A stretch of DNA of 64,000 nt from contig JASLWO010000028.1 of assembly GCA_030740795.1 (NCBI GenBank), positions 8,223 through 72,222 of the forward strand, in the 5' to 3' direction. Origin of the DNA: Acidimicrobiales bacterium. Its GTDB lineage: Bacteria > Actinomycetota > Acidimicrobiia > Acidimicrobiales > UBA8592. A program made the position numbers and the translations under genes. Shown one piece after another: positions 6,109 to 59,341 of this stretch. Position 1 is the first letter of the stretch; each line of letters opens with the position of its first letter. The notes below the pieces were generated by a model. The model did not search any database. It worked only from the letters and a program-made list of their open reading frames with translations, and was not told the origin of the DNA.

Positions 6109-6132
6109 TGTGAATACAGAAGACAAACGATC

Positions 6133-6480: not shown

Positions 6481-6534
6481 TTTACTATATGGACGCCTAG
6501 GAAGGTTAGAAAGCGGATAAAGTGACCAAGTCAA

Positions 6535-6607: not shown

Positions 6608-6620
6608 CAAGGAGAAAGAA

Positions 6621-6743: not shown

Positions 6744-6799
6744 AAAAAGCAAAACTGGAATTGGTTCTTAGTCATACTACGGAGGGCTATATTCAAATT

Positions 6800-7501: not shown

Positions 7502-7537
7502 ATAACCTTTGTCATTGAGGTCGTGTATCTTTGAAGA

Positions 7538-8545: not shown

Positions 8546-8552
8546 CTTTGAG

Positions 8553-8816
8553 TTAGGAAGATTCAATTGAATTCAGTTGCTTAACTAAGCGGCTTTTCTT
8601 TCTAGCAGCAGTGTTTTTATGAATGATTTTTTTGGCAACCGCTTTGTCAATTTTTTTGATTGCTGCACGTAAATCTTCGGAATTGGCATTGCCGGATTCT
8701 GCATTCGTAATAACGGACTTAACGCGTGAACCTATTTCTGAACGGACTCCTTTATTCTTAGTCCGCCTTTTTTCGTTTTGTCGATTTCGTTTTATTTGAC
8801 CCTTAATGTTTGCCAC
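8553..8816 (-). CDS. rpsT: 30S ribosomal protein S20
   Basis: MANIKGQIKRNRQNEKRR...IHKNTAARKKSRL. Confidence 0.97.
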   Translation of the reverse strand: MANIKGQIKRNRQNEKRRTKNKGVRSEIGSRVKSVITNAESGNANSEDLRAAIKKIDKAVAKKIIHKNTAARKKSRLVKQLNSIESS

Positions 8817-8944
8817 GTTTCACCCTTGTAAAATTATTTGTGCCCCTATCGGAGGAGTTTCTTCCGAAGGCAACTACCGTCACTAGTTACCTCGTATGCT
8901 ACCGAAACAGTGTTTAAATAGGACAAATCTCGTCAAGAACTAAT

Positions 8945-10729
8945 ATGAAACAACAAAATATTCGAAATATAGCGATAATTGCTCACATAGATCATGGTAA
9001 GTCAACATTGGCAGACCGCATGCTTGAATTATGTGGTGCTGTTGACCCAAGGGAAATGCGAGCTCAATATCTTGATTCCATGGATCTAGAAAGAGAGCGA
9101 GGAATAACGATAAAGCTACAAAGTGTCTGTTTGCAACATGGAGATGTGACGATAAATCTTATAGATACACCAGGCCACGTTGATTTCGGCTATGAAGTTT
9201 CACGCTCATTAGCAGCTTGTGAAGGGGTGGTACTTCTGGTAGATGCTGCACAAGGTATTGAGGCGCAAACATTGGCCAACACATATTTAGCAATGGAGAA
9301 TGATCTTGAGATTGTAGTTGCACTTAATAAAATAGATCTTCCTGCAGCTGAACCAGACTTGTACGCTGCAGAAATAGAGCAGGTTCTAGGAGTGCCTGTT
9401 GGTGAAATCTTAAAGATAAGTGCAAAAACTGGGGAAGGGGTATCAGATTTGCTTGAGAGAATTGTTGAGCGAGTTCCTTCGCCTGGTGGAGCACCAGATA
9501 AACCGTTACAAGCGCTGATCTTTGATAGTCATTACGATCAATACCGCGGGGTTATAAGTTCCATACGCGTCGTTAACGGAATGATTTCCACTGGCGAAAA
9601 AGTGCAATTCATGCAACGGGGAACAACTGCTGTAGTGGAAGAGATCGGGGTGAGAACGCCTGAGCCAGTAGCAGTAGAAACATTGAGGGCAGGTGAAGTG
9701 GGTTTCTTAGTAGCAGGTGTCAAAGATGTAGGTGACGCGCGGTCGGGAGAAACTGTTACAGCATTGAAAGAAATGGCCAATGGCCCTCTTGATGGATATA
9801 GGGAGCCGAAACCTATGGTTTTCAGTGGTCTTTACCCTATAGACGGTGATGACTACCCTAATCTTCGCGATGCATTGGAAAAACTGCGGCTTAACGATTC
9901 CAGTTTTACCTATGAGCCTGAAACATCAAGTGCTCTCGGATTCGGTTTCCGGTGCGGGTTTCTAGGCTTGTTGCATATGGAAATCGTTCGTGAACGACTA
10001 GAAAGGGAATTTGGGCTGACCTTAATTTCCACGGCGCCTTCTGTTCAATACCGCCTTACATTAACGAATGGTGAAATAGACTTAGTAGATAATCCCAGTG
10101 AAGTACCTCCATTGAACGAACTGGAAAGCATCGAAGAGCCTTACCTGCTTGCGTCAATTATTACCCCTAGCGCTTACACAGGTACGTTAATGGAGCTTTG
10201 CCAAAGTAGGAGAGGGGAGCTCGTTAAGATGGAGTATCTATCGCCTGAGCGTGTTGAACTGTCATACCGCCTACCATTAGCTGAAGTAGTTCTTGACTTT
10301 TTCGATCAGATGAAAAGCCGGACCCAAGGTTATGCCAGTATGGACTACGAAAATGATGGGTATAGTCGCTCAGATCTCGTCAAAGTAGAGATCCTTCTCC
10401 AAGGAGACTCTGTAGATGCTTTTAGTTCAATTGTGCATCGTGAGAAATCTTATGAATATGGTCAGAAAATGACGAAAAAATTGCGAGAATTGATTCCACG
10501 GCAACAATTTGATGTCCCGATTCAAGCAGCGATTTCAAGTAAAATTATTTCAAGGGAGACGGTTAAAGCTTATAGGAAAGATGTGACGGCGAAACTTTAC
10601 GGTGGGGATGTCACAAGGAAGAATAAGCTCCTTAAGAAACAAAAAGAAGGAAAGAAGCGAATGAAGTCAATTGGACGAGTTGATGTCCCACAAGAGGCAT
10701 TCGTTTCTGCGCTTAAACTCGATGATTAA
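8945..10729 (+). CDS. lepA: Elongation factor 4
   Basis: [42 protein letters not shown]. Confidence 0.98.
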
Positions 10730-10785
10730 TTCCAAGATCCCCCGAAATTACCAACTGGCACGCAGTCCGAAACAGGTTGATGTTT

Positions 10786-11883
10786 ATGAATGAAGACTTA
10801 TACGCGTTGTTAGGGGTTGATAAGGATGCATCTGGTGATGAAATCAAAAAAGCATACCGGGAGTTAGCACGTAAATATCATCCAGATGCGAATCCCGACG
10901 ATGATGAAGCGGAGAAAAAATTTAAGGAAATTGCTATGGCCTACGAAGTTTTGAGTGATGAAAGCCGCCGGAGACAATATGACCAATTCGGGCTAACAAA
11001 TGGTCGTGGAAATGCAGGATTTCCAGGGAATGGTGGAGTGCAAGATATTTTTGAAGCGTTTTTCGGTTCTGGAAGCCCTTTCGGTGGCAGCAATTTCACA
11101 TCAGGTGTTTCTAATGCAGGTGCGGATATAGAAGTCGCAATCGAGATTTCCTTAGAAGAAGTTGTTCTTGGTGGTGAATCTACATTTTCAATTCGGATCC
11201 CGTTAGCTTGTGGAATTTGCGAGGGGACTGGGTCAGAGAGCGGAGACAGTGAGGCATGTCAGACTTGTGAGGGGCAAGGGCAAGTGCAGAGAGTCCGCCA
11301 ATCGGTACTTGGCCAAATCATGTCAACTGCTGTTTGTCCGACTTGTAAGGGGCACCGGACGATGATTGTTGACCCCTGTTCTGTCTGTGACGGTAACGGG
11401 GTTACTGAATCAGAAGAAAAATTCACAATTGAGATAGTCAAGGGAGTGGATACTGGTGTGACACAGCGTTTGTCAGGCTTAGGTCCAGCAGGGACTCGAG
11501 GTGGAGCTCGCGGAGATATTCATGCGAGATATGTAGTACAAGATCATGAACGCTTTCAGAGATCTGGTGAAAATCTACTTGAGCAATTATGGATACCAGT
11601 CACACAGGCTGCTTTAGGTGCAGCAATAGAATATGAGACGATTGATACAACCGAAACTTTGACTATTCCAGCAGGAACCAAAACAGGAGATCGATTCAGA
11701 TTTCGCGGCTTAGGCGTGCCAAAACTTCAGAGGCGTGGCAGAGGCGATCTAATAGTCGAAGTAGTAGTAGACACGCCAACAGACCTTTCTAAACTCTCTG
11801 CTGAACTTTTGGAACAGTTAGCGATTGATCGTGATGAAACTACTCTGATATCGACTAAACGCAAACGAAAACGCCGGATTTAG
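10786..11883 (+). CDS. dnaJ: Chaperone DnaJ (DnaJ2-type)
   Basis: J-domain with HPD, G/F region, four CxxCxGx(G) repeats; start between 10777 and 10786. Confidence 0.93.
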
Positions 11884-12083
11884 GTGGTGAAACAATAGGG
11901 CGATTTGCATGATTTAGGAATTCCACATTTGGCAGTTGACGGTATTGGTCAGAGCCACTTATCTCCTGGAGATGCACAGCACTTTCTTAAAGTACGTAAT
12001 CATGATTCAAATTTAAGACTGAAACAGCAGCTAATGTCACTGCAACAACGATCACTAATAATCTGAACGTTTTAAGCTTCTAG
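11884..12083 (+). pseudogene. rsmE: Degenerate remnant of 16S rRNA m3U1498 methyltransferase RsmE
   Basis: GTG right after the dnaJ stop, in-frame TAG at 11896, then an RsmE-like N-terminus (PHLAVD...LSPGDAQHFLKVR) and, after a frameshift, the C-terminal (LR)TETAA motif at 12012-12032; dnaJ-rsmE synteny. Confidence 0.65.
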
Positions 12084-12085
12084 AC

Positions 12086-13366
12086 CTAACGGTCTTCCAT
12101 GCTAATGAATTCTCGTGTTGGGTGGCCAATGTAGAGTTGACGCGGCCTAGCAATTCGAGTATTTCTCTCTAGCATCTCATTCCAGTGGGAAAGCCAGCCC
12201 GATGTTCTGGCTATGGCAAACAATACGGTAAACATATTTACTGGGAATCCCATGGATTGATATATCAAGCCACTATAGAAATCTACATTTGGGTAGAGTT
12301 TGCGACTGATAAAATAATCATCTGCAAGTGCTGCTTCTTCCAACTTTAGGGCTATATCAAGTTGAGGGTTTTTCCCAGTGATTTCAAATAGTTGATGGGC
12401 AGTATCTTTGATAATTTGAGCTCTAGGATCATAGTTTTTGTAGACACGGTGTCCAAACCCCCAGAGTAAATCATCTCCGTTCTTTACAGAATCGATGAAC
12501 GCGTCAACATTTTCCAATGAGCCAATTTTCTTGAGCATGTTGATCACCGCTTCATTGGCCCCACCATGTCTAGGGCCAGAGAGAGCGGCGCTACCAGCGG
12601 CTATGGCTGAATATGGATCTGCATGTGAGGACCCTACGACCCGCACTGCAGTCGTTGAGCAGTTCTGCTCGTGGTCAGCGTGGAGAATGAATAGTTGTTC
12701 CAGTGCTTTGGTGAATATGGGGTCAGGTTGGTATTCTTGCGTTCCATCCCCGTAGATCATTGCTAGGAAGTTCTCTGTGTAGGTTAACTCCTCTCGGGGG
12801 GAGGGGATTGGTTTCCCGTTTCGGAAATTCTCAGCCGCAGCGGCGATCGTGGGAATTTTGGCAATCAGGTTTATCGTGTGTATTGAGCGGATATCCGGAT
12901 CTTCAATTTCTCTCGAATCGGGGTACATGGTAGATAGTGCTGCAAGGGCAGATGTGAGCATGCCCATAGGGTGGGAATCCTTTTTGAATGCTTTTAAGAG
13001 ATTGTTGTGATGTTCAGGATCCAAGTCAGAGTGACCTGCGATGGTTTTTTCCCACGTTGTGAGCTCGGTATGATTGGGAAGTTCACCATTTAGTAGAAGA
13101 TAGGCTACTTCAAGGAATGAAGAACTTTCAGCGAGATCTTTTATGGGATAGCCACGGTGCTCAAGTTGGCCAGCGCCCCCATCGATATAGGTTATAGAAC
13201 TGTTTGTAACAGCTGTTGCGGCAAATCCTTCATCTTTGAACCAAAGTCCAGGTAGCTGCTTTGTCCAAGGGCCTGAATCAATACCGCCATCAACAATTGG
13301 GATTTCAAATGACTCACCAGAGCGATTATCGGTGATAGTGATTGACTCTTTCAATGTCCGCTCCAA
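12086..13366 (-). CDS. gltA: Citrate synthase
   Basis: LHADHEQNCST, HGGANE, GFGHRVYKNYDPRA, YPNVDFYSG. Confidence 0.96.
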   Translation of the reverse strand: MERTLKESITITDNRSGESFEIPIVDGGIDSGPWTKQLPGLWFKDEGFAATAVTNSSITYIDGGAGQLEHRGYPIKDLAESSSFLEVAYLLLNGELPNHTELTTWEKTIAGHSDLDPEHHNNLLKAFKKDSHPMGMLTSALAALSTMYPDSREIEDPDIRSIHTINLIAKIPTIAAAAENFRNGKPIPSPREELTYTENFLAMIYGDGTQEYQPDPIFTKALEQLFILHADHEQNCSTTAVRVVGSSHADPYSAIAAGSAALSGPRHGGANEAVINMLKKIGSLENVDAFIDSVKNGDDLLWGFGHRVYKNYDPRAQIIKDTAHQLFEITGKNPQLDIALKLEEAALADDYFISRKLYPNVDFYSGLIYQSMGFPVNMFTVLFAIARTSGWLSHWNEMLERNTRIARPRQLYIGHPTREFISMEDR

Positions 13367-13458
13367 GTGGTTTCACTACATGATATCGGAAAAAATTGTA
13401 ATCTCAGCCCCGAAATTAGGACTTTGCCGTGAAACCGGACCCGTCAATTCTCTATTAA

Positions 13459-14817
13459 CTAGAGGGGAGTATTGCTATGAATTCGTTTTTGTAGTTTTTC
13501 TCTTTTGGACAATAGAAAGTCTAAACCACCTGAAATTTCAATCCGAGTATCTTCAGGGTCGATGATCATATCAACTGAGCCACGTTCAGCAGCAATGTAC
13601 GGGTTTAAAAGTCGTTCCTCGTAGTCGGCTTCCAGGTCCTTTCGTTCTGAGTCGTTAGCGGATCGGTGGAGTATCTCTATGGCTCCTTTTGCTCCCATAA
13701 CAGCGATTTCTGCTGATGGCCAAGCAATTGCTAGATCATTACCCATCTGTTTACTGTCCATGACGATATAAGCCCCACCGTAGCTTTTCCGAAGAGTTAC
13801 ACAAATTCGAGGAACTGTTGCATTGGCGTATGCAAATGCCAGTTGCGCCCCATGGCGGATCATGCCGCGCCATTCTAAATCTTTTCCTGGTTGGAATCCT
13901 GGAGTATCTACAAATGTGACGATAGGCAGATTGAATGCGTCGCAGAAAGTTACAAATCTGGCGCCTTTCTGTGAAGCAGCTATATCTAGGGTTCCAGCTA
14001 AGTTCTGTGGTTGATTAGCGACGATACCGACAGCGTGGCCATTGATTGTGGCTAAAGCAGTAACGATGTTTGCAGCCCAGTCTTTTCTTATTTCAGTTAT
14101 CATTTCGTTATCTACGACTTGTGAAATCAGCGCGCGCACGTCATAACTTCCGGTAGGTGATTCTGGGATTAGATTGGAAATGCCGTTCAATTTTCGATCT
14201 GGTGTATCATCGCAAGGGATTTGAGTAGGTGAAGCAGAGGAACTCAGAGGAAGAAGGAATATTAGTTCTGCAATAATCTCGGAAGCGGATTCTGCAGAGT
14301 GGGCTACGAAACTAGCAAGTCCTGACATTTGAGCGTGTTTAGCTGCTCCACCAAGAGTTTCGTGATCAATTGGAACACCAGTAAATTCTTGGACCATTCT
14401 TGGACCATTTACATAAGAATAGGAATTTTTTACCATAATTACGAAATCGGCTAACCCAAGTAGAAGCGCTGGACCCGCTAAGGCAGTTTGCTGTACACAA
14501 AATATGGTTGGGATAATGCCGGAACAAGCCGAAATTTGAGATGCTGCAGATCCCCATCCATGTAGAGCTTCAACACCTGACTCTGGGGGAGCCCCTGAGG
14601 AGTTGAGATAACAAACAAGAGGGATTCTTTGCTCGAGAGCAGTTTTGGCTGCAGCTGCGAGTTTGAGGCCGTCGTTACCAGTTAAGGCAGAAGGTTCATC
14701 TCCGGTGCCTAAAGTGACTTCAACGTAACTTTTATTTTCAAAATGAGTGATGAGCACTTTCGTATTATTTGAAACTAGAGCTTGAACCTCTACATGTGTG
14801 GTGTTCTCCGGTTGCAC
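13459..14817 (-). CDS. Acyl-CoA carboxylase carboxyltransferase (beta) subunit, AccD/PccB family
   Basis: LGGA..H..SG, DTPGF.PG, RKSYGGAYIVM, AEIAVMGA, C-terminal HSNTPL. Confidence 0.88.
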   Translation of the reverse strand: MQPENTTHVEVQALVSNNTKVLITHFENKSYVEVTLGTGDEPSALTGNDGLKLAAAAKTALEQRIPLVCYLNSSGAPPESGVEALHGWGSAASQISACSGIIPTIFCVQQTALAGPALLLGLADFVIMVKNSYSYVNGPRMVQEFTGVPIDHETLGGAAKHAQMSGLASFVAHSAESASEIIAELIFLLPLSSSASPTQIPCDDTPDRKLNGISNLIPESPTGSYDVRALISQVVDNEMITEIRKDWAANIVTALATINGHAVGIVANQPQNLAGTLDIAASQKGARFVTFCDAFNLPIVTFVDTPGFQPGKDLEWRGMIRHGAQLAFAYANATVPRICVTLRKSYGGAYIVMDSKQMGNDLAIAWPSAEIAVMGAKGAIEILHRSANDSERKDLEADYEERLLNPYIAAERGSVDMIIDPEDTRIEISGGLDFLLSKREKLQKRIHSNTPL

Positions 14818-14857
14818 ACATTAATCTTAGTGGTTTAAAAGCACGAATAGGTATTCC

Positions 14858-15763
14858 CTAGTTTGCCAAGTAAATTCCATTCTGGTCGGATCCATGATCC
14901 TGAATCATATTTCTGAGAACATCTCTCACAACTCGTGTGGTTGCAGATAGGGGGACGCGTTTGTTCGTTGCGAGCCCAACTACTCTCCGAGTGAAACCTT
15001 CGAGGGGAATACGTTTCCATTTCCCTGACCCTTGGGCGGCTGTTGCCGGCAGTACTGCCGCGCCGAAACCATCCGTCGCCAGAGAAGCTAGAAGCCTCAT
15101 GCCGTCGACTTCTGCTTTGGGGGTTAGTTTGACCCCGTGTTTTGCTAAATCTCTATCAAGGCTATCTCTGAAAGGCACGCCAGTTGGGTTAAGTAATAAC
15201 GGAAATTCTGCAAGAATCGACGGAGTGAGCGAATCATATATAGCTAGAGGATGCCCATGGGGAGCAACTAGAACAGGCTCTTCTTCGAAGAGCGGTTCCA
15301 ATTCAACATCTGGGTGAGAAATTGGAAGGTTTACAATCGCTCCATCTACGCGCCCTTGAACTACCAAAGGCATCAGATTGCTTGTGACAGCGTCAGTTAT
15401 TTGTATCCTTACTCGAGGGTACTTTTCAATCATTGACTCTAGAAGAATTGGAGTAACCCATCTCCCAGTGGTTCCAATCACTCCGAGCCGAACTATTCCA
15501 GACACTTCAGAGTGAAGCGCTTCTACATCAAGAGCTATTGACTCAAGTTCAGTTTGAACTCTGCGCGCCCGTTGAACGACCAACTGGCCCTCTTCAGTTA
15601 GGACACCTGTTCGCCGATCAATCAGTGAGACCGCTAGTTCTTTTTCAAGTCGTGCTATGTGTGTTGAGATATTTGACTGAACCGTATGGAGAGATTGTGC
15701 TGCAGCACTGAAACTCCCATTATCAACTACCGCCACTAAGGCATTAAGTTGGCGTATATCCAT
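14858..15763 (-). CDS. LysR-family transcriptional regulator
   Basis: MDIRQL...GSFSAAAQSLHTVQSNIS..IARLEKEL HTH plus substrate-binding domain. Confidence 0.93.
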   Translation of the reverse strand: MDIRQLNALVAVVDNGSFSAAAQSLHTVQSNISTHIARLEKELAVSLIDRRTGVLTEEGQLVVQRARRVQTELESIALDVEALHSEVSGIVRLGVIGTTGRWVTPILLESMIEKYPRVRIQITDAVTSNLMPLVVQGRVDGAIVNLPISHPDVELEPLFEEEPVLVAPHGHPLAIYDSLTPSILAEFPLLLNPTGVPFRDSLDRDLAKHGVKLTPKAEVDGMRLLASLATDGFGAAVLPATAAQGSGKWKRIPLEGFTRRVVGLATNKRVPLSATTRVVRDVLRNMIQDHGSDQNGIYLAN

Positions 15764-15773
15764 ACAGAAGTAT

Positions 15774-15819
15774 ATCTAGTTTCTTGATGAATGTAGAGCT
15801 AACTATCGCCCATTTAGAT
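15774..15819. promoter_or_regulatory. Two LysR-type ATC-N9-GAT boxes upstream of the LysR gene
   Basis: ATCtagtttcttGAT (15774-15788) and ATCgcccatttaGAT (15805-15819), both T-N11-A, 31 bp apart. Confidence 0.55.
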
Positions 15820-15843
15820 GGTTTTGATTCGCTATTCTAGTTT

Positions 15844-18126
15844 TTAAGTAGTTTGAGCTCTGATGACGTTTAAAGCAGAACCAGCTTTAAACCATTCGAG
15901 TTGTTCATCGCTGAATGTGTGTGTTGTTTCAAAAGAGAATGAATTTCCAGAGATTTGCGTTACTTCAACAATCACAGGTTGACCTGGAGCAAGGGATGAT
16001 AAGTTCCGGACAGCTAATCTGTCATCTTCAGTTATCTTGTCGTAGTCAGAAGGATCTTTAAATGTCAAAGGCAGCATCCCTTGTTTCTTCAAATTTGTTT
16101 CGTGGATTCTCGCGAAACTTCGTGCTATCGCTACGAGCCCAAGACGAAAACGTGGTTCCATCGCAGCGTGTTCGCGGCTTGAACCTTCTCCCATGTTCTC
16201 GTCTCCGATGACAACCCAACTTTGACCGGCTTCATGGTAAGCCTTTGCGATGTCTGGGAACGTTTGAGTTTCTCCCGTTAGTTGATTTTTGCCGTAGCCA
16301 ACTTCGTATCCAGCGTAAGCATTGACAGCTCCTAGATATAGGTTCCCAGAGATATTCTCTAAATGCCCGCGGTATTTCAACCAAGGACCGGCCATTGATA
16401 TATGGTCTGTTGTGAATTTCCCTTTGGCTTTTACAAGTACTGGTAATTCTTCGTAATCACCACCATCCCAGGGAGAGAAAGGTGTGAGTAATTGAAGTCG
16501 ATTAGATGAAGGCGAAACGTTTATTTCTATCTCGCTGCCATCCTTAGGCGGGGGAAGGAACGTGTCATCTCCGGAGTCAAAACCAGATGGAGGTAATTCA
16601 AGCCCCTGAGGGGTTGATAGCGAAACAAGTTCGCCATTTTCTGCCTTTAAAGTTCCATTGATTGGATCAAAATCAACCGTTCCTGCTAAGGCCAATGCCA
16701 TAACAGTTTCTGGCGACGTTACAAATGCAAGAGTAGCCGGGTCTCCATCATTTCTTTTGGGAAAATTCCGGTTGTAAGAAGTGACTATTATGTTTGGAGT
16801 ACCTGATTCATGTTCAGTTTCTTCCGACCTATCCCACTGACCAATACATGGTCCGCAAGCGTTTGCTAAAACTACGGCACCGAGGGCTTCGAAATCAGCT
16901 AGAAGACCATCTCTGGTAATTGTTGCTCTTACTTGTTCAGATCCGGGTGTGATCAAGAGTCGGCATTTAGCCTTGATACCTAGCGCCGTTGCTTCTCTAG
17001 CAATTGAAGCAGCTCTTGTTATATCTTCGTAAGAAGAGTTGGTGCAGCTCCCTATTAATGCTGCACTTATCTCTGTGGGCCAACCATTTGATCTAGCTTC
17101 AGCCCCCAAAGCGTTAACCTCTCTAGCTAAATCTGGTGTGTGTGGTCCGTTTATGTGAGGTTGTAGTTTGTCAAGGTTAATTTCAATTACTTGGTCAAAG
17201 TATTGTCCTGGGTTTTTAAGGACTTCTGGATCAGCTTTCAGGTGGTGTGCATGAGCAGAAGCTAGTTTGGCTACATCACTACGGTTAGTTGAATGCAAAT
17301 AGCGTTCAATTGAGGCATCGTAAGGGAAGAGAGATGTTGTCGCTCCAATTTCAGCTCCCATATTGCAAATAGTTGCCTTACCAGTCGCAGATAGGTTTTC
17401 TGAGCCCTCACCGAAGTATTCAACTATGGCACCTGTTCCTCCCTTAACCGTGAGTATTTCGGCGACTTTTAAAATCACATCTTTGGGAGCACTCCAACCA
17501 TTGAGGGAACCTGTTAGGTGAACTCCGATCAGTTTCGGCCATCTAACGTTCCAAGGGAAACCAGTCATCACATCAACAGCATCAGCTCCACCAACACCGA
17601 TAGCTATCATCCCAAGCCCGCCACCATTCGGGGTATGGCTGTCTGTACCAATTATCATTCCTCCAGGGAATGCATACTGCTCAAGAACTACTTGGTGGAT
17701 GATTCCGCTTCCGGGTTTCCAGAATCCAGCCCCATATTTAGCGCAGACTGTTTCAAGGAAACCGTATACCTCTTCGTTATCGCGAGAAGCAGTCATAAGA
17801 TCGTGTTTTCCATCAACTTTTGCCTGAATTAAGTGATCAGCATGTGTCGTTGTTGGAACGGCTACTTTGTCGAGGCCAGCGGTCATGAATTGAAGCCATG
17901 CCATTTGCGCTGTCGCATCTTGCATAGCGACTCGGTCAGGTCGGAGGTCAACATATGAAACACCCCGTTCTAGGTCTTGTTCGTTGTTGTCTAGATGGTT
18001 AATGAGTATTTTCTCAGCGTAGGTAAGTGGCCGACTTAGTTTTTTGCGGCCATGATCTAGTCTTTCTTGAAGTGTCCCGTATACCCCTTCAATCAGATCT
18101 ATGGGTGTGTTCGTGTAAACGGTCAT
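15844..18126 (-). CDS. Aconitate hydratase (mitochondrial-like subgroup)
   Basis: [52 protein letters not shown]; 760 aa. Confidence 0.93.
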
Positions 18127-18198
18127 AATCTCCTAAATATAATCAAGGATAACAGTGTCATTCTATCTGTTAACTGCTTGATTCTGGTGAAGGAAAAA

Positions 18199-19191
18199 TC
18201 AGATTCTCGGCCATTTGTTTTTGTTAGGGTTTGACTTAGATCCTTTACTTTCTAAGTTCCATGATCGTCGCCATGGGCTAGCCTCAGGCCCATGTAATTT
18301 GGGGGTTGTTCCAGAATAGTGTCTCTTGGTTGCGGTCCACCAGTCTTGGTGTGTCTCATCTGCAAGTGCGGCTACTGAATCTTCTATGCGAGTTGAGAAG
18401 GATCTTGAAGTCTCTTTTTCCTGAGGCCAAATTGGAGTTCCAAAAGTGACCGTAGTGTCTGAACGTTTCGGCCAGAATTTACCTTTCCTGAGGATAGAAC
18501 CAGTTCCACTTATGTGTACCGGAACGATAGGAACCTGGCATTTAAGTGATAGATACGCTGCACCACCGCGGAACGCTTGTCCCCATCCGTCAGGAGATCT
18601 TCCGCCTTCTGGGAAAACCATGAATGACCAACCCTTATTAATCAAAGAAGCTATATGATCTGAAGATTTACGGCTTGCCTTTGAGCGTTCAACTGGGACA
18701 GCTCCGATGAAGAGGGCGGACAAAGCTCCACTAATTTTCGAAGAGAAGAAATAATCTGCAGCTGCGCCGACAATCAATCGTTTCCGCCAGCGCATCGGAA
18801 TTGACGTCAGTAGTAAAGGAGTATCGGCGTGGCTATGGTGGTTCGCAACAAAAATCGCAGCTTGTCTTTTGCCCAAGGATTCTAAACGGTCATACCCAGT
18901 CCTATTTGGATTAGCTAAAAAATTCATCACGGGCCGAGCAATTAATTCAGTTGTTGCTGTTCGGATAATTCGACTTGGAACAGTTCTGGACCATTTCGTT
19001 GGGTAATCTTCACCCAATTTTGAATCAGATTCTAAAGGCTCAATTCCCTTGGGTGTAGTTGGTGCGCGGTAAGGAAATTGAGAAGAACGTATTACTTTAA
19101 GGTTCCGAAACCTATTGGGTGAATTACCTATGGCCCGATAGATTTGTCTTGTCTTTCGTTTAATTTCCCTTGAAGTTAGCTTTTTCACCAT
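18199..19191 (-). CDS. Lysophospholipid/glycerol-phosphate acyltransferase (PlsC family)
   Basis: NHHSHAD (HxxxxD) and FPEGGR motifs. Confidence 0.88.
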   Translation of the reverse strand: MVKKLTSREIKRKTRQIYRAIGNSPNRFRNLKVIRSSQFPYRAPTTPKGIEPLESDSKLGEDYPTKWSRTVPSRIIRTATTELIARPVMNFLANPNRTGYDRLESLGKRQAAIFVANHHSHADTPLLLTSIPMRWRKRLIVGAAADYFFSSKISGALSALFIGAVPVERSKASRKSSDHIASLINKGWSFMVFPEGGRSPDGWGQAFRGGAAYLSLKCQVPIVPVHISGTGSILRKGKFWPKRSDTTVTFGTPIWPQEKETSRSFSTRIEDSVAALADETHQDWWTATKRHYSGTTPKLHGPEASPWRRSWNLESKGSKSNPNKNKWPRI

Positions 19192-19196
19192 GGTAT

Positions 19197-20813
19197 TTAA
19201 GTCACATCTGCCATCAGTATTGGCGGACTGTGATAGTGGGTAATTGATGGACTGAATCCAACAGTATCTGAAGCAATTTCTAAAGCGTCTTGGATTGTGC
19301 TGGCTGGCCTGAAACCCATTCTTCTAACGGCCTCAGGTTGCCCCCCTACGATAATTACCTGAGAAAGGTGTTCTAAGGCATGGGAACACCAATACCACAT
19401 GTAAAAGGGGTGAACGCCATGATATGCGTATGAGGTTCTGTAGAGGTGCCTGTACCATTCATCTTCGGCAAAGGCTTTTTCATATTTTTGGCTCATTTCA
19501 ACCGCATCAGTTGTTTCGCTTAGAACACGGTCAAAAAAATCAATATAGCTTGGATGATGAACGGGGTGGAACTCCCACGGCGTGGGATGAGTCATAATAA
19601 CTACTCCACCTTTTTTAACTAAGGGTTTCCCTTTGTACATATTAAAGAAATACCCAAGTCCCAAACACGCAACAAGTATCGGGTTCATAACAGAATTTAC
19701 GTTATAAGGGCAAATGTAAGGCAAGCCCATTGTTAAGACGTCCGTTTGCCCGTCTACTTTAACTAAATGTTGCTTGTAGACATTCTCAGTTGTTTGCTTG
19801 TGGACAGCTTCTACTTCTCCAGCTTGAACTGATGTGATTTCATATGGTGATTCCCAGCCCATAAATGCCTTTCGGCGAGCTTGGGTAGACATCCGCTTAA
19901 TTCCGCCTTGCATGCCGAGAAATAATGCCCGATCTTTAAGTGTCCATTCCCACTCTCTTTTCTGGAGCATAGCTAACGGGCCATCGTAACCAAAAGTGTT
20001 GTTGTTAACAGTTGTTTCTATCTGGAATACTTTTATGCCGGAATCTTTCAAAACCTTTCCCTGGCGCCAGTTAGATTTATGAAGTTCAGAGTTTTCCTGG
20101 TCCATGAAACTTTTAGACTTAACCATGGTTTGCGGATTGTGATGGTGACGAAGAGCCGTATACCCTGATAAGCCTGTCGCAGTGCTTTTCCAACCACCAT
20201 CCATTGACACTAAATTTATATTCACGTAAACAATAAGATCGCTCTCGGCAGCACGTTTATTTATCTGTACTTCTTCACCGTGGGGAGTTGTTCCTATAGA
20301 AACCATTCCTTCAGGATCTTCTGCATCGTGGTTATAAATAGCACCTGAAGGAGAGAAAGCATCGTAAACGCGGTCGCCAACAGCATGTCGAAGTTCGGCC
20401 TCAGTCATTCTTCGGTGTAACGCTAGTGCGGCAATTAGGTGCACGTCGTCTACACCAGCTGCTGCGGCAGTATCAAGGACTGCTTCTATTACTCGCTGCC
20501 GAATATCTGGTTTTCTCATAGGGGGCAAAGGTAGAGAAATGTCATCAAATGCAATAGTTAATTTCATCCCAGAGAATAGGAGGGCTGAAAGAGGAGGTGA
20601 GTCTCCAAGGGGATTCTCAAGCGCATCTCGGATAGCTTGATTCGGGTTCACCATCCCTGGTAGAGGTTCCGCTGGATAAATAATTCGAGACCGACCTGGG
20701 GGAAGTTTCTCTAATTTAAAATTTTCTCCGTGATGAAATAGAGTTGGAGGTGTAGTGCGGTCTACTTCTAAAACCAATCCGGGTCTTGGGTGCTTCCTGC
20801 GATTATTAGCCAT
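19197..20813 (-). CDS. Lactate-racemase (LarA)-like domain protein
   Basis: IAFDDIS, ALALHRRMT (cf. LarA ATGTHR), NHDAED, GTTPHG..V.IN, GGWKS (cf. GGRKS). Confidence 0.75.
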   Translation of the reverse strand: MANNRRKHPRPGLVLEVDRTTPPTLFHHGENFKLEKLPPGRSRIIYPAEPLPGMVNPNQAIRDALENPLGDSPPLSALLFSGMKLTIAFDDISLPLPPMRKPDIRQRVIEAVLDTAAAAGVDDVHLIAALALHRRMTEAELRHAVGDRVYDAFSPSGAIYNHDAEDPEGMVSIGTTPHGEEVQINKRAAESDLIVYVNINLVSMDGGWKSTATGLSGYTALRHHHNPQTMVKSKSFMDQENSELHKSNWRQGKVLKDSGIKVFQIETTVNNNTFGYDGPLAMLQKREWEWTLKDRALFLGMQGGIKRMSTQARRKAFMGWESPYEITSVQAGEVEAVHKQTTENVYKQHLVKVDGQTDVLTMGLPYICPYNVNSVMNPILVACLGLGYFFNMYKGKPLVKKGGVVIMTHPTPWEFHPVHHPSYIDFFDRVLSETTDAVEMSQKYEKAFAEDEWYRHLYRTSYAYHGVHPFYMWYWCSHALEHLSQVIIVGGQPEAVRRMGFRPASTIQDALEIASDTVGFSPSITHYHSPPILMADVT

Positions 20814-23129
20814 TTAAGATTCCTTACTTGTGCCGAGAGGTAGAATTTTTTTTGGTGATCCAGAAATCGGTTGAAAGTTCTCAACGAGCCACCCTCTTCT
20901 TCTCGCTAAAGTCGCGAGTTTGGTTTCAGGATTTACGGCTACGGGAAACCCGACTGCTTCTAACATCGGTAAATCACTTGTTGAGTCTGCGTATGCGACC
21001 GATTCAGAAAGATCTATCTCATGGTTTTCTGCATATTCCCTTAGAACTGCGGCTCGTGTTTCACCAATGGGAGGCACTTGGCTCATCTTTCCAGAATAAT
21101 TCTCTCCTTCATGACTTAGAGATGGTGCGAGGATTTCATCAAATAATGGTTTTAGTGGCTGCACTACGAAATCTAAGGCCCCTGTGATCAAGAGGGTTCT
21201 GTGCCCTAGGGTTCTATGTTCTCGAACTCGACGAATCGCTGACGGAAATGATTTGTTAAGAATGAATTCATTGAACATGTCTAAAGAGTCTTCATCTATT
21301 TGGGCGATAGGCGCTCCTTCATATTTTCTATAGAAATTCCTCAAGAAATCTGTTCTATCGCGTCGGTCCATAGCTAACATATTCGGAGCTTCAAGTAGAG
21401 TTTTTGCAATGACGCGTGCCCTCTCTGATGGTGAAAGTCTTTTAGTAGCGAGATAACCCCAAGAGGCAACGACATTTGAAGCAATAAGAGTATTCTCAAG
21501 ATCGAAAACAGCTAATTGTCGTTTAGGATCGAGCACTTGCTTCCTAAGTCGAGAGTACCGTGAGTCTACGCTGGTTGAGGTAGGGGAAGTTTTTACTCTT
21601 CCTTGAGTGACAACGGTCGGGAGATGGATGTCATATACGTATTTCTCCCAATTGATGATTCGTGGATCGAAAGGGAAAGCTTGCCGGTCGGTGTCCGTTA
21701 TTTTTTCCCAGAGGGATAAAAGATTAGTTACGTCGTAGATAGCTTCGCATTCAACATATTTACCGTATAAAGTTATGTACTCCATCGCTTTGTCTAGTTC
21801 ATTTCTTCGTTCTTCAAGGTCAGCGACAATCATTGCACTGGTTCCTCTGATTGGAAGTTTGTGAAGAGTCCTTTCCGTTATTTTAAGTAGACGCTTAGCG
21901 CGTGTCAGTTGCGTAACTACACGGCCTCGACCTGGGAATTCCCACTTTGAAGGTGTGATGGGCTGATTCTTTTCGTCAAGGATGGGGAATTTGCCGAAAT
22001 AATCGTGTACATAATCAGCTAATATGCCTATGCGAATGGGGTTACAAGCTCCAGACGCAACTTGAAAAATTTGTGTTTCTTTTGGTGGAGTTTGGGAAGC
22101 TGCTGCGACTATTGCCGATGCGACTAAGTCAACTGGGATGATGTCAATTATTCCTTCAGGTATGCCCGGAAACTCTTTAAGGGTTCCGCGACCGAAATTT
22201 AAGATAATGGGTTCTGCCATCCTAAAGCCTCTAATCCAACCAGGTGTAGGGGCTTGCCAAGACGACTCAATGATTGAAGGGCGTACGATTGAAAGTGGGA
22301 TGTTTCCTCTAATTTCTTGAACAGCCTGTTCGGCCATAGCCTTAGTGAAAGCATATGCATCTGGAAATCCCAAAGAAGTTGCTCGTTCTCTTCCAGCTTC
22401 AACCATTTTTTCTTTGACCCAACGTTCACGTATTTGTTCAGTTTTGCTGGCTATTACCGAAATACCTGGAGCTCCAAGTTCTTCTTTCGCTTCTGTTCGA
22501 AACTTTTCCAGATTCTCACTCCTTCGGCTGTCATCCTCCGTGTATGCCCGAGTTCGTCTTGCTGCTTCAGTTTCTTCACGCCAATTTAGTGGAACATAGA
22601 ACGGACTTTGCGAAAGTGGTTTCTCGGGAGCTTTCCCTTTCCGGTTTCCGGCAACATAGCATGTGCTCACCATTACAACGTGCGGCGATGCATTGAGTTC
22701 TTTTAATGTTTCAACTAGTCGCACTGGACCCATTAGATTTACTTCTGCTGCTCGGTCTAAAGGTTCATCAAAACTAACTGCTGCAGCACTATGAATTATT
22801 ACATCACAATTTGAGATTTCTTTGATTCCGTCTTCATCTAAGTCAAGATTTGGTTTAGAAATATCTGCTGATATCGCTTCTATTTGACTCTTGACCATGG
22901 CTTCGAAAGTAGATTCCCCCAAGTTATCTTTCAGTGTCTTGAAAGCGTCATTGCGGAAGATGTCTCTTTCAAGACGTTTCTGAGCGGATCGTCTACCGGC
23001 GGGGCGGATGAGAAGCCGTAATTGAACGTCTTTAACCTCGCGAAGTAGTAATTCAACTAGTGCAGTCCCCAAGAAACCAGTGGCGCCGGTAATAGCTATT
23101 TTTTTACCCTCTAGTGATTCTTTTATCAC
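20814..23129 (-). CDS. Fatty acyl-CoA reductase (NAD_binding_4 + male-sterility domain) fused to a HAD-IB hydrolase
   Basis: ITGATGFLG, HSAAAVSF, YAFTK (YxxxK), IVRPSIIES, IPVDLV; C-terminal FDLENTL / ITG / AYADSTSD...AVNP HAD-IB motifs. Confidence 0.87.
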   Translation of the reverse strand: MIKESLEGKKIAITGATGFLGTALVELLLREVKDVQLRLLIRPAGRRSAQKRLERDIFRNDAFKTLKDNLGESTFEAMVKSQIEAISADISKPNLDLDEDGIKEISNCDVIIHSAAAVSFDEPLDRAAEVNLMGPVRLVETLKELNASPHVVMVSTCYVAGNRKGKAPEKPLSQSPFYVPLNWREETEAARRTRAYTEDDSRRSENLEKFRTEAKEELGAPGISVIASKTEQIRERWVKEKMVEAGRERATSLGFPDAYAFTKAMAEQAVQEIRGNIPLSIVRPSIIESSWQAPTPGWIRGFRMAEPIILNFGRGTLKEFPGIPEGIIDIIPVDLVASAIVAAASQTPPKETQIFQVASGACNPIRIGILADYVHDYFGKFPILDEKNQPITPSKWEFPGRGRVVTQLTRAKRLLKITERTLHKLPIRGTSAMIVADLEERRNELDKAMEYITLYGKYVECEAIYDVTNLLSLWEKITDTDRQAFPFDPRIINWEKYVYDIHLPTVVTQGRVKTSPTSTSVDSRYSRLRKQVLDPKRQLAVFDLENTLIASNVVASWGYLATKRLSPSERARVIAKTLLEAPNMLAMDRRDRTDFLRNFYRKYEGAPIAQIDEDSLDMFNEFILNKSFPSAIRRVREHRTLGHRTLLITGALDFVVQPLKPLFDEILAPSLSHEGENYSGKMSQVPPIGETRAAVLREYAENHEIDLSESVAYADSTSDLPMLEAVGFPVAVNPETKLATLARRRGWLVENFQPISGSPKKILPLGTSKES

Positions 23130-23137
23130 ACTCTATT

Positions 23138-23153
23138 TCTACCACTTGGTAGA
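23138..23153. promoter_or_regulatory. Palindromic TetR operator candidate TCTACCA-CT-TGGTAGA
   Basis: Perfect 7-bp inverted repeat in the 42-bp gap between the divergent FAR operon and tetR, overlapping the FAR-side -10 and the tetR promoter spacer. Confidence 0.7.
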
Positions 23154-23171
23154 GAATGGTACAATCTTTAT

Positions 23172-23762
23172 GTGAAGACTTCTGAGCGTGTCTTGTCAGC
23201 AGCTACTACAGCTTTCGGCGAATTCGGTTATGACTCTACGAGCTTGGATGATTTAGCGAAAGAACTGGGGATTCGAAAACAGTCAATTCTGTATCATTTC
23301 CCTTCGAAAGAGCAACTTCTAGCTAGCTCAGTTGACAAGGCCATTGACGAATTAATTTTGGTTTTGGATGAAGCGATTCGAACTAGTCGGACTGGTTGGG
23401 ATCGTGTTGAATCAATAGTTAAAAGTGTTTTCCGGTTAGCGATTCGCCGACCTGAATTATTGGGACTTTTAAGAGAAGTGACGCGCTTAGGTCCACCAGT
23501 GTTGACTCGCGCAGTTGATGGAATCAATCCTTTGTTGAATGGAGCCACCGATTGGTTGCGTGAAGAAATGGAAGCTGGCCGCATAAGACATTCTGATCCT
23601 GAACTTCTTGTACTCTCAATCTATTCAACCGTTATGGGCGCAGCCACGGAAGTAAAACTATTTGAAGCTATAGGTGAGAAACAGACTCTTCGAGGGGCTG
23701 CTTTGAGGAGGAAAGAATTGCTCCGCTTCTTGAAGAGCGCTTTATCTCCAGATGGGTTTTGA
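23172..23762 (+). CDS. TetR/AcrR-family transcriptional regulator
   Basis: GYDSTSLDDLAKELGIRKQSILYHFPSKEQL HTH. Confidence 0.93.
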   Translation: MKTSERVLSAATTAFGEFGYDSTSLDDLAKELGIRKQSILYHFPSKEQLLASSVDKAIDELILVLDEAIRTSRTGWDRVESIVKSVFRLAIRRPELLGLLREVTRLGPPVLTRAVDGINPLLNGATDWLREEMEAGRIRHSDPELLVLSIYSTVMGAATEVKLFEAIGEKQTLRGAALRRKELLRFLKSALSPDGF

Positions 23763-23779
23763 AAAGCAGAGGTGAGCGA

Positions 23780-24829
23780 TTAACTAGCTGTGCTGATCAA
23801 CACTTCCACCAATTCTTCGTAACTCAATCCGGAGTTAGCCCAGAGTTTTGGGTACATGGAAATTGGCGTAAAACCGGGCATTGTGTTTATCTCATTCACC
23901 AACCACTTGTTTGCGCGTTCGTCAAAGAAAAAATCAACTCTTGCCAGACTCCTGCAACGGAGTAGAGCGAAAACTTCGAGGGCTAACTCTTGAGCGTTTA
24001 AGATTTGAGATTGCGTTAGTTGTGCAGGGATTTTTAAGATTGCACCATCTTCGTATTTATCGTTGTAGTCATAGAATTCGGCTCCAGGAATTATTTCCCC
24101 AGGCAAGGAAACTTTTGGCTCATCGTTACCAAGAATTGAAATTTCAATTTCTCTCCCAGAAATAGCCTCTTCGATAACGATCCATTCATCGTATTTTGCT
24201 GCTTCTTGAAGAGCTGAGTGAAGCTTTGACCTTTCCGTAACTTTGGTAATGCCAATGGATGATCCCATGTTTGATGGCTTTACGAAAAGAGGGATTTCGA
24301 GTTCCACATCAATAGCTGATCTTGCAACTTTCTCTATCTGACTCGCGTGAATCCCAATCCATTTTGTTTGTTGAATACCCGCATTTTTGAGAATTTCTTT
24401 GGTTTTGAGTTTGTCCATGCATAAGGCGGAAGAAAGAACCTTGCTTCCAACATAAGGTACGTGCATGAGCTCTAAGAAACCTTGTATGGTTCCATCTTCA
24501 CCGTTCGGTCCATGAAGAACAGGAAAGACTATAGGGGATGTTTCCTTTAACCGGTTAAAGAAGGTTATGGGATTTACCGAAGTCCCTACTGCATCTAGTG
24601 CCTGCGGCAGGTTTTCTTGGTCATCACAACTCACTTCGTTGAATACATGAACCCAAGTTCCATCGAGAGTTATTCCTAGGACATGAACTTCGTATTTTTC
24701 GGTATCAACGACTTTAAGAATATGGGCAGCGGAAGAACAGGAGACAGAGTGTTCAGGTGATTGCCCACCGAAAATGATTACAAGTGGTTTCCTAATATTA
24801 ATCGGATCGTTGGTGGTCGTATTATTCAC
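23780..24829 (-). CDS. ddl: D-alanine--D-alanine ligase
   Basis: FGGQSPEHSVS, LHGPNGEDG, GSSIG, FYDYNDKY, NEINTMPGFT. Confidence 0.95.
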   Translation of the reverse strand: MNNTTTNDPINIRKPLVIIFGGQSPEHSVSCSSAAHILKVVDTEKYEVHVLGITLDGTWVHVFNEVSCDDQENLPQALDAVGTSVNPITFFNRLKETSPIVFPVLHGPNGEDGTIQGFLELMHVPYVGSKVLSSALCMDKLKTKEILKNAGIQQTKWIGIHASQIEKVARSAIDVELEIPLFVKPSNMGSSIGITKVTERSKLHSALQEAAKYDEWIVIEEAISGREIEISILGNDEPKVSLPGEIIPGAEFYDYNDKYEDGAILKIPAQLTQSQILNAQELALEVFALLRCRSLARVDFFFDERANKWLVNEINTMPGFTPISMYPKLWANSGLSYEELVEVLISTAS

Positions 24830-40662: not shown

Positions 40663-40718
40663 AAAAACACATTAGCCCCGATTGGTTTCTGCCTAAACAG
40701 GAACCCCTCGGGGCTGTG
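40663..40718 (-). terminator. Intrinsic terminator closing the ncRNA candidate
   Basis: CAC-AGCCCCGA...UCGGGGCU-AAU-GUG followed by UUUUU; inner stem GGUU.CUG/CAG.AACC. Confidence 0.7.
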
Positions 40719-41075
40719 CAGTTTAACGCTTCCAAAGTCATCCCCTGAAGGACTCCTAAGGTTTGGTTCCGCTCCTCTTACGATTTGCTTTTCAATTCCC
40801 ACCATTCCCCTAAGGTCATGGTTTGATTTGATTTCACTTTCCTCCTTGCGGATTCTTGTGAGAACCCATCTGGCCCTAAAGCCTGATGTCGGTCTGATTT
40901 GGTTTCTGCCCTAAGGCTTCTTCCTTCTCAGTTGATCTTATCTTTCGACTTGATCCCGTTAAACCTGTTCCGATGGCCGTTCACACTTTCCTTTAGCCGA
41001 ACTTTCCCGGATATCGATGCTGCCACCGCTCCCGTTGAGCTTTGCTAATCTCTAGTGCGCCGTTGTCATCGGCGT
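40663..41075 (-). ncRNA. Unassigned ~413-nt structured non-coding RNA candidate
   Basis: ORF-free 600-bp gap; promoter, terminator, many short stems with GNRA/UUAG loops and a long-range 8-bp helix (40957-40964 with 40721-40728). Confidence 0.72.
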
Positions 41076-41081
41076 AGAGTT

Positions 41082-41110
41082 ACTTTTACATGTTCTGGCA
41101 AGTTCGTCAA
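41082..41110 (-). promoter_or_regulatory. SigA-type promoter of the ncRNA candidate
   Basis: TTGACG, 17-nt spacer ending in TGt, then AAAAGT (imperfect -10); purine TSS at 41075. Confidence 0.55.
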
Positions 41111-41121
41111 GTTGTTTTATG

Positions 41122-41193
41122 AAATCCTCAACTTTTCCACAATAAAAACATAGAATTCCACAAAAAACTTGCTCTAATCACAACTTATCCACA
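41122..41193 (+). promoter_or_regulatory. Cluster of DnaA-box-like 9-mers
   Basis: TTATCCACA (41185-41193, perfect), TTTTCCACA (41133-41141), weaker AATTCCACA (41154), CTAATCACA (41174), AAATCCTCA (41122); all in the same orientation. Confidence 0.5.
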
Positions 41194-58937: not shown

Positions 58938-58942
58938 TGGGG

Positions 58943-59176
58943 TTAAACCTCGAGGTAGATGCACTCACCGGGGCATTCTTCAGCAGATTCGATGGTAGCT
59001 TCTTCCTGTCCGTCAGGAACAACACCCAAGCCATCAGGTCCCCCTGGATCGGAATAGATTGTATCCCCTTCTTTGACATAAGCTAAACCATCGTCAAGAA
59101 GCGTAAAAACATCTGGGGCTATTTCTTCACATAACCCGTCTCCAGTACAAAGATCTTGATCAATCCAAACTTTCAT
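58943..59176 (-). CDS. Ferredoxin (CxxDxxC...CP)
   Basis: DQDLCTGDGLCEEIAP...ECPGECI. Confidence 0.92.
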   Translation of the reverse strand: MKVWIDQDLCTGDGLCEEIAPDVFTLLDDGLAYVKEGDTIYSDPGGPDGLGVVPDGQEEATIESAEECPGECIYLEV

Positions 59177-59341
59177 TTATCCCTCTTAATTTAAGTTGCC
59201 AAAGAATATTATGTCCAAATGGTATAAGAAATGTGTGGATGTTGAAACACTTTTTAATAGAAGTATCTAAGATTATGAATTTTATATGAAAGCTCATACA
59301 TGTGCCGAGGCAATGATGGTATAGGCTTCTACGATAAATAT

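What the first reader, a model, noticed from the sequence alone, without database searches (positions are those of the whole stretch)
40663..41075. Large, independently transcribed, highly structured ncRNA of unknown class (~413 nt)
Seen: the only large ORF-free gap in the window, purine-rich on the minus strand, bounded by a TTGACG-17-AAAAGT promoter and a GC-rich terminator with a U tract. Hand folding gives: a 5' hairpin CGCCG/CGGCG; a multi-way junction closed by CAC/GUG and UUAGC/GCUAA, containing GCUC/GAGC and GGUG/CAUC; a ~230-nt domain closed by GUUUAACG (40964-40957) pairing with CGUUAAAC (40728-40721), holding arms GAUC..GUC-GAAA-GAU..GAUC, CUGA..GCC-UUAG-GGC..UCAG, CAUC..GGC..GCC..GAUG, UCC-GCAA-GGA, ACCAU..CC-UUAG-GG..AUGGU, UC-GUAA-GA and CCAAA..UUUGG. 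It lacks RNase P, tmRNA, SRP and 6S hallmarks. Inference: a novel abundant RNA, possibly an Acidimicrobiia counterpart of RNA-polymerase-binding Ms1-type RNAs or a protein-scaffold/sponge RNA. Its retention in a compact genome suggests selection.
Basis: partly seen in the sequence, partly recalled or inferred. Interest (0 to 1): 0.88.

Follow-up and report, generated by a model that had tools for sequence, protein, structure and literature searches.

The report
Undescribed large RNA of marine Acidimicrobiia
The gap holds a conserved, single-copy gene for a folded 413-base non-coding RNA that matches no catalogued family, turns up in ocean RNA samples, and likely binds and stores RNA polymerase, filling the role that 6S, Ms1 or CoRP RNA fill in other bacteria.

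Summary
The RNA gene is real (41075→40663, minus strand, 413 nt). It folds far better than shuffles (z −6.2), has no Rfam match, and has an invariant promoter and terminator. It is conserved in 16 of 22 same-genus genomes and, with the same neighbours, in Ca. Poriferisocius. Contigs from all 7 marine RNA runs laid cover it and almost nothing around it.

Covariation corrects the hand fold. The conserved core is one ~105-nt irregular 5' hairpin; the central domain varies from ~50 to ~350 nt. New here: a helically phased array of DnaA-box-like repeats upstream. The same promoter drives one ORF-poor, terminator-ended unit per genome in many Acidimicrobiales, often unrelated in sequence.

RNase P, SRP and tmRNA lie elsewhere; 6S and Ms1 models find nothing here; CsrA is missing. 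Best reading (0.5): a lineage-specific RNA-polymerase-binding RNA, working like Ms1/CoRP but a member of neither. It shares a 13–14-nt motif with CoRP, which is suggestive only. Binding is untested. The scan earlier noted a similar ~565-nt Acidimicrobiia RNA on other DNA (e1-2166863).

The parts
40663..41075 (-). Non-coding RNA gene, 413 nt; predicted start A41075, end in the U tract
   Evidence: contigs of RNA runs span 40674-41068
40970..41072 (-). 5' domain: long irregular hairpin of 2-6 bp helices separated by purine-rich internal loops; the conserved core
   Evidence: 10 of 25 pairs with changes on both sides, 97% of cells paired; kept in Ca. Poriferisocius-type orthologues
41015..41030 (-). 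Apical hairpin CGGUG-GCAG-CAUCG carrying the invariant 13-mer also present in C. glutamicum CoRP RNA
40720..40965 (-). Central multi-branch domain closed by a 9-bp stem; arms capped by GNRA/UUAG/UUCG loops; size varies from ~50 to ~350 nt among orthologues
40737..40753 (-). Hairpin GUCCU-UCAG-GGGAU-GAC, invariant in the genus
   Evidence: 17 of 17 rows; absent from G024, G300 and the Poriferisocius type
40663..40719 (-). Intrinsic-terminator-like hairpin with internal loop and U tract, abutting the central closing stem
   Evidence: related GCCCCG..CGGGGC terminators in other families
41082..41110 (-). sigma-A-type promoter: -35 TTGACG (41110-41105), extended -10 TG (41090-41089), -10 AAAAGT (41087-41082)
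   Evidence: TTGAC, TG, A-11 and T-7 invariant in 17 of 17 rows
41125..41193 (-). Phased array of five TG(T/G)GGA-type boxes at -118, -107, -87, -66, -55; the first is a perfect DnaA box (TGTGGATAA)
   Evidence: present in all 20 loci printed; unique in G000; same 9-mer upstream of G000 dnaA
41226..41657 (-). Upstream neighbour, glyoxalase/VOC protein; not in all orthologous loci
   Evidence: PF00903
41648..42403 (-). Upstream neighbour, GDPD phosphodiesterase; constant synteny marker of this RNA type
   Evidence: PF03009
39924..40616 (-). Downstream neighbour, alpha/beta hydrolase, after the terminator; separable from the RNA
   Evidence: PF00561; present without the RNA in G223; not found downstream in the G024 and G300 loci

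Best explanation
This is a single-copy, stand-alone structured RNA gene with its own conserved promoter and terminator, whose likely very abundant transcript likely binds RNA polymerase through its long irregular 5' hairpin and so would store or tune the polymerase pool, as Ms1 and CoRP do in other Actinomycetota. Shown: the gene boundaries, conservation, 5'-hairpin pairing, single copy, presence in RNA libraries, and no detectable 6S or Ms1. Inferred: very high abundance; that the bulged hairpin mimics a DNA duplex or open promoter; that the variable central arms are accessory; that DnaA binds the upstream array and ties expression to replication state. Untested: polymerase binding, and core versus holoenzyme.
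For: (1) Elimination. RNase P, SRP and tmRNA are elsewhere in G000. 6S was not found in 101 order genomes searched. Ms1 was not found in G000, and G000's two HAD-IB genes over the cut-off offer no Ms1-type site: one is in a gapless operon, the other in a 772-aa frame. PMC11077062 (section 33 read) proposes that each species has one abundant RNAP-binding RNA and that such RNAs diverge beyond sequence recognition. (2) One per genome. Single copy in G000, and never more than one promoter match in 24 matching genomes. G223 has no RNA at the GDPD site but has one unit of the other type beside tRNA-Sec. (3) Contigs of 7 of 7 RNA runs laid fall on 40674-41068; elsewhere in 2 kb or 20 kb there are only scattered pieces at depth 11 or less. 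454 runs of 11-16 million letters hold it. (4) The layout (5' irregular hairpin, closed central domain, abutting terminator) and size match the MFE folds of Ms1 and the CoRP size (516 nt). (5) The longest common word with CoRP is 13 nt for G000 and 14 nt for four orthologues, and it is the invariant block; 73 of 20,000 simulated CoRP-like sequences share any 13-mer with G000.
Against: No binding data. The 5' hairpin lacks a large central bubble, which matters for Ms1 binding (PMC4191392 passages). The CoRP word is exact in only 3 of 10 CoRP loci, degenerate in 4 and absent in 3, and in CoRP it does not close the same hairpin. The covariance model scores CoRP and Ms1 at chance level (E 0.96 or more). 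The promoter-sharing units of other families lack the apical word and carry an unrelated 3' module, so one gene family is inferred, not shown. The Rfam Ms1 model is insensitive (5 of 151 phylum genomes, one family), so a miss says little. Contig depth is a poor measure of expression, the runs were selected for holding this stretch, strand is not visible, and no DNA run was laid. One contig (L111/L151) has two units in tandem.
Confidence: 0.5

Rival explanations
1. Multivalent scaffold or sponge for a protein other than RNAP or CsrA, for example a nucleoid-associated, KH-domain or Rho-type RNA-binding protein: each tetraloop-capped arm with a purine-rich internal loop is one binding site, and arm number sets capacity.
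For: Arms are modular and vary in number (225-498 nt among orthologues; up to ~700 nt in promoter-sharing units). GGCAAC, CTTCGG and CGCAAG loops recur 87, 61 and 41 times in 74 units.
Against: The most conserved part is one non-repeated 5' hairpin, and the arms shrink to ~50 nt in the Poriferisocius type. No partner gene is linked: neighbours differ between families.
Confidence: 0.22
2. An ornate RNA that acts by its own tertiary or oligomeric structure (ROOL/GOLLD/raiA-like; those classes are recalled except raiA, for which passages of PMC10861870 were read).
For: Many GNRA loops and purine-rich internal loops, and invariant unpaired words such as GACAAC and the UCAG hairpin.
Against: No Rfam hit. 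Fast divergence: the model finds only the window's family, 4 of 151 genomes. No match in viral contigs. No pseudoknot was identified.
Confidence: 0.15
3. The functional element is the DNA: a DnaA-box cluster (datA/DBC-like) that titrates or reactivates DnaA, with the transcript as a by-product or a means of clearing DnaA.
For: The promoter and box array are the only order-wide conserved sequence. The first box equals those upstream of dnaA.
Against: The transcribed region shows compensatory pairing and invariant words, which a by-product would not need. Only one of five boxes is a perfect DnaA box.
Confidence: 0.06
4. Cis-acting leader or riboswitch of the downstream hydrolase, a base-pairing sRNA, or a small-peptide mRNA.
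For: Same strand as the hydrolase and 47 nt upstream of it; an ATG/GTG at +7 in most genus members.
Against: RNA and hydrolase occur apart. The +7 frame runs 5-77 codons, with no conserved length. The longest matches of invariant blocks elsewhere in G000 are 10-14 nt and mostly same-sense; the 14-mer lies in a coding region. No listed contig bridges the terminator (tables cut).
Confidence: 0.04
5. CsrB/RsmZ-type sponge of CsrA.
For: 10-33 GGA words per copy.
Against: CsrA was not found in G000, in 0 of 22 genus genomes, or in G024 and G300, although 14 of 61 relatives have it. Only 0-2 hairpin loops per copy contain GGA.
Confidence: 0.01

Closest known systems
CoRP RNA (Corynebacterium glutamicum, 516 nt; PMC11077062)
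   Same: Stand-alone, lineage-restricted, fast-diverging, 400-500-nt actinobacterial RNA with its own terminator, in a lineage lacking 6S and Ms1; shares an exact 13-14-nt word with this RNA's invariant block.
   Different: Different synteny (tRNA-Gln/Glu pair and tRNA-Glu). No match for the CoRP profile in G000. The word is not among CoRP's most conserved blocks and folds differently there.
Ms1 RNA / MTS2823 / scr3559 (RF02566)
   Same: Three-part layout (5' irregular hairpin, closed central domain, abutting terminator), similar size, purine-rich loops.
   Different: No model or profile hit; longest shared word 8-9 nt. No HAD-IB synteny. In Ms1 the central domain with its bubble is the conserved part; here the 5' hairpin is. 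Ms1 promoters lack the box array.
6S RNA (RF00013)
   Same: Irregular long hairpin with internal loops; single copy; likely abundant.
   Different: More than twice as long; 5' and 3' ends do not pair into one rod; no central bubble; not found by RF00013.
raiA motif RNA and other large ornate RNAs in Rfam 15
   Same: Large, structured, function unknown; raiA is reported in Acidimicrobiia (PMC10861870 passage).
   Different: No Rfam match at any threshold tried; not beside raiA; highly variable length.

Membership tests
Ms1 RNA | Match to RF02566 or to a profile of Ms1 sequences | tested here: not met
   the model is narrow
Ms1 RNA | Gene adjacent to a HAD-IB hydrolase (PMC9130861) | tested here: not met
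   Neighbours are glyoxalase/GDPD and an alpha/beta hydrolase; G000 HAD-IB genes lie elsewhere
Ms1 RNA | Long central hairpin with a conserved bubble and short terminal hairpins | tested here: inconclusive
   Three-part layout shared, but the central domain is multi-branched and variable
Ms1 RNA | Binds RNAP core without sigma; accumulates in stationary phase | not testable with these tools
   needs RIP or pull-down
CoRP RNA | Sequence homology to CoRP | tested here: inconclusive
   One 13-14-nt word shared, 73 of 20,000 by simulation; no profile or model hit
CoRP RNA | [quoted passage not shown] | tested here: not met
   The window's only tRNA is at 6535
CoRP RNA | Binds RNAP core and holoenzyme | not testable with these tools
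   needs experiment
6S RNA | ~180-nt rod with central bubble; RF00013 match | tested here: not met
6S RNA | Binds sigma-A holoenzyme and templates pRNA | not testable with these tools
   needs experiment
CsrB/RsmZ | CsrA gene present; GGA in hairpin loops | tested here: not met
RNase P, SRP, tmRNA | Family model match; being the genome's copy | tested here: not met
   No hit here; each found on another contig
raiA motif and other Rfam large RNAs | Rfam 15 match | tested here: not met

The most novel reading that the evidence does not exclude
Acidimicrobiales have a fourth class of abundant RNA-polymerase-binding RNA. Its body is rebuilt freely from tetraloop-capped modules (about 200-700 nt, at least two unrelated sequence types), while an order-wide promoter with a phased DnaA-box array stays fixed, so the replication initiator directly sets how much polymerase is parked. 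The word shared with CoRP would be the first common sequence signature of such RNAs across actinobacterial classes.
Probability: 0.15. Interest if true: 0.9.

Novelty: new variant of a known kind. Interest (0 to 1): 0.74.

Why it matters
Which RNA fills the 6S/Ms1 role in actinobacterial lineages that lack both is an open question, stated in PMC11077062. This gives a concrete single-copy candidate for a whole order, and cultured members (a named Ilumatobacter record carries the promoter and a unit, L120) make it testable by RIP-seq. It also names a transcript that recurs unannotated in marine metatranscriptomes. The family is recognisable by its promoter rather than its sequence, which explains why covariance searches miss it and suggests a way to find similar RNAs elsewhere.

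Tried and rejected
Rfam scans of the window, the region and 18 related loci: nothing relevant.

Covariance model R1 of the 5' domain across 151 order genomes found only the window's family, and only 23 candidates were scored per genome. On 28 chosen loci it gave Poriferisocius cores at E 0.26-0.97 and CoRP/Ms1 at chance.

Viral contigs: 0 matches. Metagenome scan: 58 of 89 hits lacked the promoter and array and were dropped as chance or unrelated. Seven mid-region BLAST hits lay in apparently coding DNA and were dropped.

The exact core pattern was in 0 of 201 genomes of the family centred on G524, against a reversed control ringing in about 17. Searches used mis-built patterns and are uninformative; one search was redone. 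The 19-nt CoRP word with 2 mismatches hit 19 of 151 genomes; only the 3 exact hits lay in CoRP synteny.

The profile of the second type's 3' module matched none of the window-type units, CoRP or Ms1, and nothing in G000. Eight other well-folding gaps of G000 gave no Rfam family and looked by eye like short genes, terminators and one leader; the remaining gaps were not read.

Uncovered bins in RNA runs are not taken as evidence of silence. Two runs of different studies stop at 41068, one with an adapter loose end: a weak hint at most.

Literature searches (listings only) showed no description of this RNA. Shi et al. 2009 (Nature; marine psRNAs, recalled) is not held and may already list it as an unnamed group. 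bioRxiv supplements are closed, so the 2026 genomic-language-model catalogues may contain it unseen.

Full report
1. Observation. The minus strand from 41075 to 40663 has no ORF of 60 aa or more and is 62% purine. It folds at -145 kcal/mol, z -6.16, with 0 of 100 shuffles as good. The promoter hexamers and closing-stem strands are at the stated coordinates. Rfam has no match. It is the largest of three gaps of 350 nt or more on the contig. Its neighbours are GDPD and glyoxalase upstream and an alpha/beta hydrolase and gltD downstream. RNase P, small SRP and tmRNA genes are on other contigs; 6S and Ms1 were not found in this 90%-complete genome.

2. Conservation. BLAST finds the unit in 16 of 22 same-genus genomes (62-94% complete), in 1 of 2 other genomes of the family and in 0 of 16 other families. 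In 17 aligned copies (379-466 nt) these are invariant: TTGAC, the extended -10 TG, A-11 and T-7, most of the 5' domain, a UCAG hairpin, most of the closing stem and the terminator stem; the middle varies. GDPD lies upstream in every locus with that flank. No reading frame is conserved. A metagenome pattern scan gave 89 hits, 31 of them with the promoter and array; the viral scan gave none.

3. Structure. A long irregular 5' hairpin (nt 4-106) has 97% of cells paired and 10 of 25 pairs changed on both sides. None of 500 shuffles reached this, and slid controls gave 24-41%. Kinship inflates these numbers, and I drew the structure from these sequences. Across 20 full-length copies from two clades, 15 of 89 consensus pairs show compensatory change, mostly in central arms; the closing stem and the outer terminator stem never vary in that set and so carry no covariation.

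4. Transcription. 20 runs were listed, 14 on record as RNA, holding 0.23-0.40 of the words of a 1-kb query of which the unit is 41%; three are 454 runs of 11-16 million letters. I laid 7 of the 20. In all 7, contigs fall within 40674-41068. Elsewhere there are only isolated pieces at depth 11 or less, while X1 shows contig depths of 5,000-24,000 on the unit. Limits: contigs show neither strand nor ends, depth sums relatives and cannot rank genes, the runs were chosen for holding the stretch, and no DNA run was laid. Presence in RNA libraries is shown; extreme abundance is likely, not measured.

5. A promoter that defines a wider class. Upstream of -35 sit five TG(T/G)GGA-type boxes at -118, -107, -87, -66 and -55, present in all 20 loci printed and unique in G000. 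The first equals the DnaA boxes found upstream of G000's dnaA (the DnaA-box consensus is recalled). A GC-rich orthologue used as BLAST query hit 11 further genomes by its promoter alone, most followed by ORF-poor purine-rich stretches (read by eye).

In those 115, boxes peak at -106, -95, -83, -72 and -51 from the -35 start, in helical phase; the peaks at -31 and -19 are partly imposed by the pattern. Of 78 stretches with enough downstream DNA (3 of them unrelated taxa), 74 got a crude terminator call (median 440 nt, range 159-709). Twelve carry the window's apical hairpin and 44 an unrelated CCCGYC..GACGGG module. Seven tested units fold at z -2.4 to -8.1. With two mismatches the promoter matched 19 of 77 order genomes (reversed control 4) and 5 of 173 other class genomes (control 4), never twice in a genome (counted from the table). 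18 of the 19 lead into such a unit (partly by eye). G000's AT-rich promoter does not match this pattern, so 19 of 77 is a floor.

6. Distant orthologues. Ten loci, three named Ca. Poriferisocius, have the same GDPD, RNA, hydrolase order (nine also reach gltD), the promoter, the apical hairpin and a related terminator, in units of 228-275 nt. Their central domain is about 50 nt. So the 5' hairpin is the core and the central arms are expandable. G223, of the window's family, has a small gene in the GDPD-hydrolase gap and one unit of the second type beside tRNA-Sec; that unit folds into the same three parts. The two types share no detectable sequence, so that they are one gene is an inference from promoter, layout and one-per-genome occurrence.

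7. Mechanism. The best reading is an RNAP-binding RNA (0.5). It rests on elimination, single copy, likely abundance, and size and layout like Ms1. It also rests on the proposal in PMC11077062 that each species has one such RNA with lineage-specific sequence. The CoRP sequence in that paper's supplement contains the invariant word of this RNA: 13 nt shared with G000 and 14 nt with four orthologues, against 8-9 nt with Ms1; 73 of 20,000 simulations reach 13. Against: the word is exact in 3, degenerate in 4 and absent in 3 of 10 CoRP loci, folds differently there, and models give no cross-hit. There is no large bubble. A CsrA sponge is excluded: no CsrA in any carrier searched, and few GGA loops. 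A cis role is unlikely because RNA and hydrolase occur apart. A scaffold for another protein (0.22) or a self-structured ornate RNA (0.15) remain open.

8. Known families and novelty. Defining features that could be tested for 6S, Ms1, CoRP synteny, CsrB and the housekeeping RNAs were not met, so it is filed under none. Papers seen: PMC11077062 (passages, section 33, supplement passages; the file was cut when stored); PMC9130861 (passages; no occurrence of 'Acidimicrob' in the main text); PMC4191392, PMC10861870 and PMC5069720 (passages); bioRxiv 10.64898/2026.10.21.760802 (one passage; supplements closed). Seven library searches showed no description. Shi et al. 2009 was not available and could list it unnamed. 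The scan's own notes gave nothing by sequence or place. One note by words described a ~565-nt Acidimicrobiia RNA in another genome with a similar verdict; I read it after forming mine, and it is not independent evidence.

9. Verdict. A real, conserved, undescribed RNA gene. New variant of a known kind if it binds polymerase; otherwise a new kind. Interest 0.74.

Noticed in passing
L335 (G000:C37:3021-3472, minus strand): A long structured leader with a short upstream frame and a terminator-like hairpin before a small cysteine-containing gene; it resembles a whiB-family attenuator (label recalled, not tested). No Rfam hit.
   Followed up: partly
L111/L151, matches at 292-326 and 1201-1235 of L111 (minus): Two promoter-plus-unit copies about 900 bp apart on one contig, different in sequence: the one exception to one-per-genome.
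   Followed up: partly
L217 (G223:C42), gap between GDPD and hydrolase; L018 downstream of the RNA: A small unannotated protein gene of roughly 80 aa, similar in both loci, preceded in G223 by DnaA-box-like words in the opposite orientation.
   Followed up: no
L227, L255, L264, L291, L307: A recurring GC- and purine-rich repeat-like element in unrelated metagenome contigs that matches the core pattern but lacks the promoter and array; possibly another RNA or a mobile element.
   Followed up: no
L205, L207-L215 (CoRP loci): The most conserved CoRP blocks include a Shine-Dalgarno-like word followed by ATG in most loci; a short coding or translation-linked element inside CoRP was not examined.
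   Followed up: no
L037, L038, L041, L043: Second-type units in one family sit beside leuA-like (HMGL) and, in two loci, aminotransferase class IV genes, a different fixed synteny from the window's.
   Followed up: partly
window about 8546-8944 and 58938-59299: Two further gaps of 399 and 362 nt free of ORFs of 100 aa or more; not among the 15 best-folding gaps of the genome and not read.
   Followed up: no
window about 20919-21515 (minus): A HAD-IB domain (TIGR01490 above cut-off) inside a 772-aa open frame, apparently a fusion.
   Followed up: no
L007 and L019 (G011), L009 and L020 (G013): G011 has two near-identical copies of the whole locus, and G013 has it split over two contig ends; probably strain mixing or assembly breaks.
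   Followed up: no
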